NCBI RefSeq assembly: GCF_035594765.1
Contig: NC_085842.1
Span: 314,325,749-314,389,748, forward strand
Source of the DNA: Anolis carolinensis
Taxonomy: Eukaryota
Direction: 5' to 3'
Length of the DNA stretch: 64,000 nt
The number at the start of each line of letters is the position of its first letter. Positions within the stretch are counted from its first letter, which is position 1. Positions 1 to 54,004 of this stretch are shown here, in pieces. The translations under genes were made by a program, and so were the position numbers. Under the pieces are notes generated by a model. That model saw only the letters and a list, made by a program, of their open reading frames with translations, searched no databases and was not told the origin of the DNA.

Positions 1-533
1 AAGTAGACTTACTCCGGGTCTACTCAGGAGTCGTAGCTTGGCTTGGCCGCCAAGATCTGGAAACCTGGTTTGGAAGAAGCAGGAGCTAGAGTCGGTGAAC
101 CTTTCTCAGGAAATAGCAACGTTGACACCGCAAAGTGTCCACGGTGTAAAACACTTTTATGGAACCCAAATAGATCACAAATAAGGGAAGCCAAACTCCT
201 AAATGTTCTCAAGGGAAAACCTTCTATCCATTATCCCCTCAAGATGCCAAGCGGTTACTCCTGCGGAGTCCTTGTTTTTCAGATCTCTGGAGATGCAGAA
301 ACTCCCTTCTGTTGAAGAACACATTCTCTGGGGAAATAAGAACATCTGGTTCAGCCATGGGAGTAATATTTTTGCTTTCTCTCCCAATTAAGGAATCACC
401 CGAGCTATCAACAGTCGGCAGCTGTAATTGAAAAGAGCTCTGTGGACTGGATAAAAAGTCAGAATAAGCTTCATCCTGGTCAAAGTTCATTTCTGGATAA
501 TGTTCAGAAACCAAAGGTGGCTGGGGTATGACA
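1..533 (-). mobile_element. Gypsy-like LTR, 5' (U3) part; continues past the window start
   Basis: The minus strand begins TGTCATACCCCA, similar to TGTGATGACCCA of the solo LTR at 51454. It shares the encoded peptide motif and the downstream GAGAA..TTTA(A)GGAGTTT block. TATA-like CATAAAA near 155-161 (minus). Confidence 0.7.
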
Positions 534-38967: not shown

Positions 38968-39463
38968 NNNNNNNNNNNNNNNNNNNNNNNNNNNNNNNNN
39001 NNNNNNNNNNNNNNNNNNNNNNNNNNNNNNNNNNNNNNNNNNNNNNNNNNNNNNNNNNNNNNNNNNNNNNNNNNNNNNNNNNNNNNNNNNNNNNNNNNNN
39101 NNNNNNNNNNNNNNNNNNNNNNNNNNNNNNNNNNNNNNNNNNNNNNNNNNNNNNNNNNNNNNNNNNNNNNNNNNNNNNNNNNNNNNNNNNNNNNNNNNNN
39201 NNNNNNNNNNNNNNNNNNNNNNNNNNNNNNNNNNNNNNNNNNNNNNNNNNNNNNNNNNNNNNNNNTTTATNNNNNNNNNNNNNNNNNNNNNNNNNNNNNN
39301 NNNNNNNNNNNNNNNNNNNNNNNNNNNNNNNNNNNNNNNNNNNNNNNNNNNNNNNNNNNNNNNNNNNNNNNNNNNNNNNNNNNNNNNNNNNNNNNNNNNN
39401 NNNNNNNNNNNNNNNNNNNNNNNNNNNNNNNNNNNNNNNNNNNNNNNNNNNNNNNNNNNNNNN
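38968..39463. other. Assembly gap (N) with a 5-bp island tttat at 39266-39270
   Basis: Seen directly. Confidence 1.
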
Positions 39464-50859: not shown

Positions 50860-51453
50860 TTCTAGCAGGAACTTCCAGATTTTAAAAATATAGCTACCTG
50901 CGCTGCAAACATCTTGTCGGAAACTGTGCAAAAATAATTAAAAGAGACAAGGAGAGTAGCTTGGGAAAAGCTAATTATTGAGAATACTAGGTGTCTCATT
51001 GGGCCTTGAATATTCTCTGGGCTTTGATTTCAGGACATAGATGCTCAAGTCCTATAATGCACAAGTCAACATTTGCTTTCTGGAATTTTTATAATCATAA
51101 TGTTTGATTTGTGTGAAAGGTAAAGTTGTTGCCATTGCTAATTTGATTCCTCAAAGGGTTTTCTTGGTTTAAATAGAGGAAATTTAGGTTTACTTGACAT
51201 TGCTATTGATGGGTTTTGGTACCAATTCAAAGGGAAAATATAGCCTAAGGAAATCTGGGTTTTGCTACTCCTGGTGTAACAATAGGGAACTAGATAGCAG
51301 CAGTGAGTGGAGTGTTGAATACACTTTTGGTGTTAGCCTGTAGTTAAAAGAAGCTTTCCTGGGTGCTGAATCTTGTCTCTAAAACAGCTTCAGCACTCTG
51401 GATAAATAAATCCCTGAACGGATTCACAGCCCTGTGAACACAGAATCCACGGA

Positions 51454-52426
51454 TGTGATGACCCATGGGCCTTGTAGTCCTGCTCAGGACATTGTAATTC
51501 CTGATGAAGATGAAAACTTGGGTTTTTTACCTTCCCAGTCTGAACTGGATTCCTCTCAGCCAGATCTTTCCCAGGCAGATCTGGGAACCTTGCACCTGCA
51601 AGAAAGTTGTCTCCCAGAAGTATGTCAAACAAGCCCAGAGCCTACTTCTCCCGTGTTCTTGCGCCGGGAGTTTTGTAAACAACAGAGAAGTTTGGAATCA
51701 GCTTCGCGCAGGAGTGCGAGGATTGCAGCTAAGAATGTAGCCAATTAAGACTGCTTCTCGTGAGAATCTTTAAGGAGTTTAACATCTGGTCTCAGAGTTT
51801 AGCTTTCGTTTCTGATTCCCAGAGAACTGCTTCGGTGGGAAAGTTAAACGCTATATAGGTGTTTTACCCGCGTAGTAACTTCGCGGAGTCAATTCGTCAG
51901 CCTACGGAGCGAGTTGTGTCTGGACAGCGCGCTCCGATTCAAGCCTCGCTCCTGCTCAAGCCTTGCCCTGCTTTCCAGCCTTCGCCTTGCTTCCCAGCCT
52001 TGTTTACCTACGGACTTTGCCTTGTTGCCCAGGACCAATCCTTGCCTTGTATCACGGATTTTACCAAGTTATTCCACGGACCTTGTTCTTGTTCCTTGTT
52101 ACCTTGTTCCACGTTTTAAGCCTTGCTTCAAGTATCAAGTTATTTCCTAGCCTTGCTCAAGTTTATGGACTAAAGGACCTTGTCATCTCCCCTCACTTTG
52201 CCTGGCAAAGTGTGTGTTTCGGTTACTGGATTACAACTTTGGACCTTAATATTTCATATTGGACATCGCTTTTTTGGACTAATTTAGACCTTTCCTGAAA
52301 GGTCTGCTTTTGGACTATTTCACATACTTGCTTTTATTAACTTTATATATTCCTTCAATAAAGATATTAGTTAGATTCTGGCCTCTGTGTTTGGTTATTG
52401 GTGCCTTTGCAACCTGGGTCGTGACA
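51454..52426 (+). mobile_element. Solo LTR of a Gypsy-like retrotransposon (973 bp)
   Basis: TGT...ACA ends with imperfect TIR tgtgatgaccca/tgggtcgtgaca; perfect 5-bp TSD ACGGA; TATATA near 51852; AATAAA near 52357; CpG-rich, so probably young. Confidence 0.92.
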
Positions 52427-54004
52427 ACGGAACACTTCTTCAACTAGATGAGTTTCCGGTCTGATTTTGGAGACTTGAAACTAGACCTTGGTGAAGGTTT
52501 TTTTTTTTTGCAGTATTGTGAGAGTTATCATCCCCAAAATAGTTTCATGAACTCTATTTAAAGCAATATGAATAGTACATTGCTGTCGATAATATGCTTC
52601 CATTCCTGATCCCTGTGAAAGCATGACATCAGGGTGACCTTGGGCAAGTCACATGCTCTCAGCCTTTGAAAAACCCCTGATGAGTTTGCCTTGGGGTCAG
52701 CATGAGTCGTAAATAATTTGAAGACACACAACAACAATAAAATGCTCCATTAATATGATTAAAATATTTCTATTCCACCATTTATCACGAGATCTCAGGG
52801 TGGCATACTATTAAAATAACATTAAAAAGTTTAAGGCAATTCTAGTTAAAAGCAACATAATACTTTAAATAGGTTCAATAAATCATCCGTTCAAAAGAAA
52901 AGGCTAAAACTGTTAAAAATCATATGATGTATCTTTTTCCTCCCGATCTCACTTGTAAATATTGACTTGAAAACAGAAAGCCAAACACTTCTTACAGTAT
53001 CTTCTTTTGATGGAAGTTTGCCCTATTAGAGTTGCTGGGGCTGTTAGAAACCTGATTAACAATTGAGTCAGTGCTTGGTCAACCTGCCATGTAGCTTGTC
53101 AGTCATTGCTTCCATCACATCTTCATGACCCCAGTTTTTAAAATGCCATAACAGGACTAGCCGAGTGATACACAAAAAGCTTTAGGCCTGACAGATTTCA
53201 GAATTTCTTTTGCCTCTAACTTCAATTTCATTTTCAAATTAAGCAACAATTGCTTTTAGAAATTTTCAAAAAGGAAATCTTGAAGACCCAGGAGCTGTTG
53301 GATGTGTAACTAGTTCCCTTTCCCATTTATCCCTCACGCACTGTGTGACTGTTCCAAAAAACTGATAAAACCTGTTTTGGATGAAAGTGGGGAGAACATA
53401 AATCAAATGAAATCAATCTGGTATGTGGAAGAAACACAAATGAATTTCCATATCTTTACATTTCTTTTAGTTTGCAAGAAAGAGCAGAATCTGGGTAATC
53501 CTACAGCATGGGGAAATGAAATAGCCAGTTCCCCTTCCATATATTTTTCCGATTGAAAATCCATCCACACGTGATTGATGCTAAAATGGTATAATCTAAA
53601 AAATATTGTTGAAATGCAATTGTGGATGTTTCATTCTCATTTGACTGGGCATTTTTTTTAGAGTTTCTCTTGAGACAGAAACATTTAGCAGAATTTCAGA
53701 AGTATGTATCATATCCAGATTACAAAACATACCAACCAATTTCTCTTGCCTTTTTTTTTTTGCCTTTCCTGTATATCTTCCAAATGGCTGGATCATGTGC
53801 CAAATGACTCAAGTGCACCATCTATCTTTAATAGCTACCTTTGTGCCATATGAGTCTATAACACCTGCTTGCCAAGTGACCAAGAAATCAGAGCTTAGCA
53901 AAACAGCGGCTTACATCAGCCTATGGCTTTAACGTACATGTAGGTGAAACTGTTCCAACTGCAGCATTATTTCTGGGCCAGTCTACCACCTTGGCAAAGA
54001 AAGT

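What the first reader, a model, noticed from the sequence alone, without database searches (positions are those of the whole stretch)
51455..51748. Conserved ~97-aa peptide encoded in the U3 of two divergent Gypsy-like LTRs, ending in an RRSxR motif
Seen: the solo LTR (51454-52426) and the LTR at 533->1 (minus) are hard to align as DNA. Yet both have an open frame starting at LTR base 2 (xxT|GTN), each 294 nt to the stop. The peptides share D[EQ]DE...FL.S and SP..VF.RREF...QRS.....RRS.R.A (VFLRREFCKQQRSLESASRRSARIA vs VFFNRREFLHLQRSEKQGLRRSNRLA). Shared residues use different codons (RR = cgc cgg vs aga agg; S = agt vs tct), which suggests protein-level selection. Known: some Ty3/Gypsy pol ORFs read through the PPT into the 3' LTR, and short Arg motifs in KSHV LANA and foamy virus Gag bind the nucleosome acidic patch. 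Inference: the LTR encodes a selected C-terminal integrase tail (acidic linker plus NLS or chromatin tether), or a small LTR-borne protein that every solo LTR carries.
Basis: partly seen in the sequence, partly recalled or inferred. Interest (0 to 1): 0.75.

Follow-up and report, generated by a model that had tools for sequence, protein, structure and literature searches.

The report
Lizard retrotransposon integrase's HMGN-like nucleosome hook
The reading frame at the start of these lizard retrotransposon end-repeats is the last ~100 amino acids of the element's integrase, kept by selection and ending in an RRSxR motif like that of HMGN chromatin proteins, which likely hooks the integration machinery onto nucleosomes.

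Summary
51454-52426 is a solo LTR of a young 6.4-kb Ty3/Gypsy chromovirus of a lizard, likely Anolis. In 19 of 19 full-length copies fetched, pol reads through the polypurine tract into this frame and stops at LTR base 293-295. The peptide is therefore the integrase tail behind an HP1-type chromodomain. The LTR at 533->1 belongs to an older sister family with the same in-frame junction. The equal 294-nt lengths are a coincidence: that copy has an early stop. Across 17 subfamily copies the tail is under purifying selection (omega 0.31; 0.13 in the F..RRSxR[LI]A block), confirmed by DNA-guided controls. The motif, RRSARIAA, matches yeast Dot5 RRSARIAT and HMGN RRSARLSA, both tested acidic-patch binders. 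A Podarcis relative ends its tail with RRSARLKA. A predicted complex with lizard H2A-H2B scored 0.73 against a best control of 0.02, which may reflect memory of solved structures. A separate LTR-borne protein is unlikely, because the frame lies upstream of the inferred transcription start. Best reading: a likely bivalent chromatin tether on integrase. Binding is untested. New variant of a known kind; no paper found in 10 searches.

The parts
51449..51453 (+). left target-site duplication ACGGA
51454..52426 (+). solo LTR (973 nt) of chromovirus family A; full-length copies are 6417-6421 nt
51455..51748 (+). U3 frame encoding the last 97 aa of Pol/integrase plus stop; in full-length copies it continues pol across the PPT
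51455..51649 (+). acidic, Pro/Ser-rich linker, residues 1-65 (12 D/E, 0 K/R); omega about 0.46; likely disordered (inferred from composition)
51656..51730 (+). conserved basic block F-x-R-x-x-[FY]...RRSxR[LI]A, omega about 0.13
51707..51727 (+). RRSARIA, HMGN/Dot5-like motif (R85, R86, S87, R89); predicted to contact the H2A-H2B acidic patch
51852..51857 (+). TATA-like box
51883..51892 (+). 10 nt complementary to the element's primer-binding site; inferred transcript 5' end and self-primer, so U3 ends here
52357..52362 (+). AATAAA, likely polyadenylation signal
52427..52431 (+). right target-site duplication ACGGA
1..533 (-). 5' part of a 3'-truncated LTR of older sister family C (runs 231 nt past the window edge)
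239..532 (-). family C integrase-tail frame; this copy has an early stop at codon 98
245..265 (-). RRSNRLA motif of family C
122..131 (-). 10 nt complementary to the family C primer-binding site, which was predicted from it and then found in the genome

Best explanation
The frame is the selected C-terminal tail of a lizard Tf1/sushi-type chromovirus integrase, encoded in U3 of the 3' LTR, and its terminal RRSxR[LI]A motif likely works as an HMGN-like arginine anchor on the nucleosome H2A-H2B acidic patch. Shown: pol (PR-RT-RH-IN-SH3-chromodomain) reads through the PPT into the LTR; the tail is under protein-level selection, strongest at the motif; the chromodomain keeps the three HP1 cage aromatics. 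Inferred: the tail stays on mature integrase. The chromodomain would read methylated H3K9 while the motif, at the end of a flexible acidic linker of 53-71 aa, would grip a nucleosome face. Together they would tether the pre-integration complex to chromatin. Solo and 5' LTRs carry the frame passively, upstream of their inferred start site.
For: Read-through: 19 of 19 full-length family A copies have one 1261-codon pol frame ending at 3' LTR base 293-295. The frame is in register across the PPT in 30 of 30 family B loci and in 4 of 5 family C 3' ends. Domains. Chromodomain best match HP1beta, E 3.9e-10, with F/W/F at the cage positions. Selection, 17 natural copies, one per subfamily: omega 0.31 whole tail (lnL -3767.5 vs best -3856.2 at omega 1), 0.46 linker, 0.13 C-block (lnL -978.9 vs -1056.0). 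DNA-guided control on 8 pairs: mismatches at codon positions 1/2/3 are 140/141/251 in the tail (p 1e-10) and 338/307/358 in the downstream LTR (p 0.14); indels are multiples of three in 5 of 6 vs 13 of 87. Motif columns in 17 copies: R 17, R 16, S 16, anchor R 14, L/I 17, A 16; the first R uses 5 different codons and Lys appears once. Yeast Dot5 RRSARIAT binds nucleosomes, needs R6/R7/R10 and the acidic patch (PMC13347269, passages). HMGN RRSAR and Dsup RRSSRLT bind the patch by cryo-EM (PMC12487698, parts 1-2 of 5). Podarcis relatives end in RRSARLKA after an otherwise unalignable acidic tail. Predicted complex of tail 62-97 with the host's H2A-H2B: score 0.73, best of 3 controls 0.02; this mark was reached by 51 of 78 solved complexes and 2 of 108 mismatched pairs. 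Confident contacts fall on tail 82-92 only: R85-H2B Q47, S87-H2A E61/E64, R89-H2A E61 and H2B H109, the Dsup register.
Against: No binding, localisation, protein or RNA data. The complex passed in 2 of 3 runs (0.73, 0.77, 0.02); runs share at least 10% of contacts, partner pLDDT is at least 44, peptides are outside the calibration, the pass may come from memory of solved acidic-patch peptides, and H2A D90/E92 are not among the named contacts. The motif is short and also fits an NLS or a basophilic kinase site (own knowledge). The anchor Arg is absent in 3 of 17 representatives; in family C, 21 of 32 scored copies keep it and the other 11 differ by transitions at a CpG codon. 126 of 130 related chromodomain-bearing Pol proteins lack R[RK]SxR after the chromodomain, so chromoviruses in general do without it. 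The 8 control pairs share members and are not independent, and omega rests on a protein-guided alignment. Protease removal of the tail could not be tested.
Confidence: 0.7

Rival explanations
1. The tail is selected as a nuclear localisation signal for integrase or the pre-integration complex, with the acidic linker as spacer.
For: The C-block holds 7-10 K/R. In plant CMT2, RRSxR repeats lie in an N-terminus whose section heading links it to nuclear localisation (bioRxiv 2024.07.11.603080, one passage).
Against: Lys replaces a motif Arg once in 51 positions, and Ser and the L/I-A after the anchor are kept. Classical NLSs usually accept K for R (own knowledge). The sequence matches tested acidic-patch motifs at 6-7 of 8 positions.
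Confidence: 0.12
2. The F-x-R-x-x-F...RRSxR block is a basic helix or phospho-regulated site that binds DNA or a non-histone host factor, as the CRM CR motif is thought to.
For: The upstream F (17 of 17) and R (16 of 17) are as conserved as the motif and lie outside the confident contacts of the model. An SP usually precedes the block.
Against: The Podarcis tail keeps RRSARL but not the F-x-R-x-x-F pattern. The predicted interface centres on RRSARI. This reading can coexist with the best one.
Confidence: 0.1
3. The frame is a stand-alone small protein expressed from solo or 5' LTRs.
For: Families A and B have an ATG at codon 2. Some public gene models start at this ATG or splice into the frame (P0185, P0187, P0189, P0038).
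Against: The frame is continuous with pol. It lies upstream of the TATA box and of the inferred start site. The codon-2 ATG is missing in 8 of 17 copies. Old solo copies gather stops and frameshifts.
Confidence: 0.04
4. The conserved stretch is a DNA or RNA cis-element of U3, and the peptide is a by-product.
For: Families A and C share a 9-nt run across RRS, and the motif Ser uses only AGY codons.
Against: Third-position excess and frame-keeping indels are confined to the frame. Over all pairs the motif has pS 0.83 against pN 0.26.
Confidence: 0.03

Closest known systems
Tf1/sushi group chromoviruses (GyDB V-clade: Sushi-ichi, Amn-ichi/ni/san; MAGGY, Tf1)
   Same: [quoted passage not shown] Fish relatives also appear to read a short way past a G-rich junction.
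   Different: An 85-105 aa LTR-encoded acidic tail ending in RRSxR[LI]A was seen only in Anolis and Podarcis; 126 of 130 relatives lack the motif after the chromodomain.
Plant CRM group A centromeric retrotransposons (CR motif, CHDCR)
   Same: [quoted passage not shown]
   Different: The CR motif replaces the chromodomain (PMC6317226), whereas here the tail is added behind an intact one. No Pfam match to the tail. The CR partner was unknown in that paper.
HMGN nucleosome-binding core (RRSARLSA) and the HMGN-like motifs of Dsup (RRSSRLTS) and yeast Dot5 (RRSARIAT)
   Same: Family A RRSARIAA matches Dot5 at 7 of 8; family D RRSARLAE and Podarcis RRSARLKA match HMGN at 6 and 7 of 8; all three arginines needed in Dot5 are kept.
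   Different: The motif ends a transposon polyprotein and the acidic region lies before it. No HMG14_17 or PDB match. Binding is only predicted.
Retroviral chromatin tethers: foamy virus Gag and MLV p12
   Same: An Arg anchor on the H2A-H2B acidic patch tethers the pre-integration complex (PMC11054761, PMC5053271 passages).
   Different: Those tethers are Gag-derived. This one is on integrase, is LTR-encoded and is paired with a methyl-lysine reader.

Membership tests
Ty3/Gypsy chromovirus, Tf1/sushi group | LTRs TG...CA with 5-bp TSD and domain order PR-RT-RH-IN | tested here: met
Ty3/Gypsy chromovirus, Tf1/sushi group | chromodomain at the integrase C-terminus, group I with three cage aromatics | tested here: met
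   PF00385 E 3e-9; alignment to HP1beta; definition in PMC3350952
Ty3/Gypsy chromovirus, Tf1/sushi group | [quoted passage not shown] | tested here: met
   10-nt complement about 30 nt after the TATA-like box in families A and C; the family C site was predicted, then found at 3 LTR-gag junctions. Sequence test only.
Ty3/Gypsy chromovirus, Tf1/sushi group | RT phylogeny within the V-clade with named reference elements | not tested
   no tree with Sushi-ichi or Amn references was built; nearest proteins are lizard, frog, fish and fungal chromoviruses
CRM group A (CR motif) | integrase frame runs into the 3' LTR | tested here: met
CRM group A (CR motif) | CR motif in place of a chromodomain, plant CRM clade | tested here: not met
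   canonical chromodomain present; vertebrate host. Not a member; works alike.
HMGN protein family | stand-alone small protein matching the HMGN family profile | tested here: not met
   no Pfam match at E 0.1, no PDB match at E 10, fused to Pol
HMGN-like motif (Dsup, Dot5) | RRSxR[LI] with three conserved arginines | tested here: met
HMGN-like motif (Dsup, Dot5) | acidic-patch-dependent nucleosome binding | not testable with these tools
   prediction only: 0.73 vs best control 0.02, 2 of 3 runs

The most novel reading that the evidence does not exclude
Squamate chromoviruses evolved a self-encoded bivalent nucleosome reader on integrase: an HP1-type chromodomain plus an HMGN-like acidic-patch anchor written into the 3' LTR. 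It has been kept since the Anolis-Podarcis split while the linker turned over completely. This would be the first HMGN-like motif in a mobile element and an integrase-borne counterpart of foamy Gag and MLV p12 tethers. Each solo LTR leaves a copy of the module that the host could splice onto its own proteins.
Probability: 0.55. Interest if true: 0.72.

Novelty: new variant of a known kind. Interest (0 to 1): 0.6.

Why it matters
How vertebrate chromoviruses reach chromatin is little known; the chromodomain evidence cited in PMC3350952 comes from fungal elements. This gives a 7-residue, testable candidate tether next to the chromodomain, with natural variation across 17 subfamilies and two lizard genera. 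It adds a mobile-element example to the few HMGN-like motifs described (HMGN, Dsup, Dot5), and it parallels the LTR-encoded targeting domain of plant centromeric retrotransposons. It also explains why the start of U3 in these LTRs evolves like coding sequence, and why gene predictors call small genes and exons in them.

Tried and rejected
Equal ORF length as evidence: rejected as a copy-specific stop. Full-length family C element: no pol upstream of 30 top LTR hits or 12 pattern hits, and a PPT pattern found 0. Only broken 5' parts and 3' ends were found; 40 of 43 hits were inside LTRs or not examined. Tail profile against 1.84 billion representatives: 3 hits, all Anolis gene models; it missed the Podarcis tail, so the search is weak. 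Tail profile against P0183, a Podarcis model lacking the motif end: probability 0.1%. Tail against Pfam and PDB: none. The tool for DNA around public proteins was closed, so the LTR position of the Podarcis tail is inferred from protein models only. The downstream exon of gene model P0038 was not within the 40 kb searched. Literature: searches listed no paper whose title or abstract start describes this motif in a retrotransposon; 'HMGN-like + retrotransposon + integrase + nucleosome' gave 0. Repbase, Dfam, subscription journals and supplements were not seen and may already annotate the read-through. Earlier scan findings: none.

Full report
Observation. Both frames are as described: 97 codons from LTR base 2, with the quoted peptides. 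They share a 30-residue C-terminal match (47% identity, E 3e-6), while blastn finds no DNA match. The 51454-52426 repeat is a solo LTR with TSD ACGGA. The equal length is chance: the LTR at 533->1 has an early stop at codon 98, as do 5 of 24 in-frame family copies, while 19 run on. That LTR is also 3'-truncated at base 764 of about 886.

What the element is. The solo LTR has 39 further full-length matches at 97-99% among the 40 best of 4263 candidates, nearly all in pairs 5.45 kb apart. I fetched the 19 pairs. All are 6417-6421 nt with TSDs, a gag frame (split by a stop in 1 of 19) and one 1261-codon pol frame ending at base 293-295 of the 3' LTR. Their two LTRs differ at 0-1 positions, so the family is very young; these are the best hits, not a random sample. 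Pfam reads protease, RT, RNase H, integrase zinc finger and core, Tf2-type SH3 and a chromodomain at 1090-1138. About 25 residues later pol crosses the PPT and enters the LTR. Named protein hits at 88-95% are Anolis carolinensis gene models that already include the tail, so the host is likely that lizard. The chromodomain aligns best with HP1beta and keeps aromatics at the three cage positions; the MAGGY group I chromodomain binds H3K9me2/3 (PMC3350952, passages).

Where transcription starts. The primer-binding site is complementary to 10 nt at LTR base 430 (window 51883), about 30 nt after a TATA-like box. This fits the self-priming of the Tf1/sushi group (PMC6317226, passages). I used the rule to predict the primer site of the second family and found it at 3 LTR junctions, each followed by gag. 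The frame therefore lies in U3 and would be transcribed only at the 3' end of full-length RNA. This is inferred; no RNA data could test it.

The second family and others. No pol lay upstream of 42 family C LTR loci, and 22 of 24 scored copies have TSDs. A search with a family C integrase end found five 3' ends with chromodomain, PPT and this LTR, in frame in 4 of 5. It also found several more subfamilies. Family B is in register in 30 of 30 loci. Family D ends RRSARLAE or a near variant in most of 28 copies read.

Selection. I aligned one unbroken natural copy from each of 17 subfamilies; choosing unbroken copies means open frames are not themselves evidence. Tails of 85-105 aa share 19-68% identity with family A. 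A codon model gives omega 0.31 for the tail, 0.46 for the linker and 0.13 for the 26-column C-block, each far better than omega 1 (2dlnL about 177, 50 and 154). Because a protein-guided alignment biases this, I re-aligned 8 pairs as DNA. Third positions carry 251 mismatches against 140 and 141 in the tail, with no such period in the next 500 nt of LTR, and indels keep frame in 5 of 6 against 13 of 87 (Fisher p 0.0009; pairs share members). In the motif the first Arg is invariant across five codons, the second Arg and Ser are kept in 16 of 17 and the last Arg in 14 of 17.

The motif. HMGN proteins bind nucleosomes through RRSARLSA. Cryo-EM places HMGN2 RRSAR and Dsup RRSSRLT on the acidic patch, with Dsup R363 at H2B Q47, S365 at H2A E61/E64 and R367 as anchor (PMC12487698, parts 1-2 of 5 read). 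Yeast Dot5 RRSARIAT needs R6, R7, R10 and the patch (PMC13347269, passages). Family A reads RRSARIAA. A Podarcis muralis Pol has chromodomain, GGPGRGDGV junction, a different acidic tail and RRSARLKA (5 of 15 listed cluster members). The same tail opens three gene models that go on into gag, as expected if it lies in both LTRs (DNA not checked). Of 130 related proteins with a chromodomain, 4 have R[RK]SxR behind it: two Anolis, one Podarcis and one frog model of doubtful relevance.

Predicted complex. Tail residues 62-97 with the host's own H2A and H2B scored 0.73 against a best control of 0.02. The mark was reached by 51 of 78 solved complexes and 2 of 108 mismatched pairs. Runs were 0.73, 0.77 and 0.02, agreeing in at least 10% of contacts, with partner pLDDT at least 44. 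Confident contacts are limited to residues 82-92 and follow the Dsup register. Peptides were not calibrated and the pass may be memory of solved acidic-patch complexes, so it shows likeness, not binding.

Mechanism. Shown: read-through, domain order, selection, motif match. Inferred: the tail remains on integrase; the chromodomain reads H3K9 methylation; the motif anchors on H2A-H2B; the acidic linker (8-15 D/E, 0-4 K/R) gives reach. Together they would hold the integration complex on chromatin, as foamy Gag and MLV p12 are described to do (PMC11054761, PMC5053271, passages). I put this at 0.7, an NLS at 0.12, DNA or other-partner binding at 0.1, a free small protein at 0.04 and a cis-element at 0.03.

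Known kinds and novelty. By sequence the element is a Tf1/sushi-group chromovirus (no reference tree built). An LTR-encoded integrase tail with a targeting role is known from plant CRM group A, where it replaces the chromodomain (PMC3059260, passages). It is not an HMGN protein but carries an HMGN-like motif. Ten literature searches listed no description of this combination; repeat libraries, subscription papers and supplements were not seen. Verdict: new variant of a known kind, interest 0.6.

Noticed in passing
P0007, P0013, P0014, P0020, P0025, P0104, P0130: Fish chromovirus Pols carry RPRGRPRR right after the chromodomain (AT-hook-like; label recalled) and a short tail past a GGGSV/GGGNV junction ending SP[ED][YF]. 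This may be a second, DNA-binding solution at the same position.
   Followed up: no
P0038 (XP_062826559.1); first exon at L235:57-257: An NCBI gene model joins a host exon in frame to a whole LTR tail with its RRSARIAA motif: possible exonisation or a prediction artefact. The tail exon was not within 40 kb downstream.
   Followed up: partly
L096/L095/L094 and L092/L091: Family B LTRs spaced about 5.4 kb apart, each preceded by a PPT and integrase end: tandem elements that share LTRs.
   Followed up: no
L080:695-1177 (minus strand), about 8 kb left of the window: Another LTR of the family A/B group lies close to the window edge.
   Followed up: no
L061:1956-2205 region: gag and pol overlap by about 45 nt in different frames in 19 of 19 family A copies, which suggests ribosomal frameshifting.
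   Followed up: no
L180: A second LTR start lies just after the tail stop of the first: a nested or chimeric LTR of another subfamily.
   Followed up: no
window 38968-39463: Two runs of N, 491 bases in all, unrelated to the finding.
   Followed up: no
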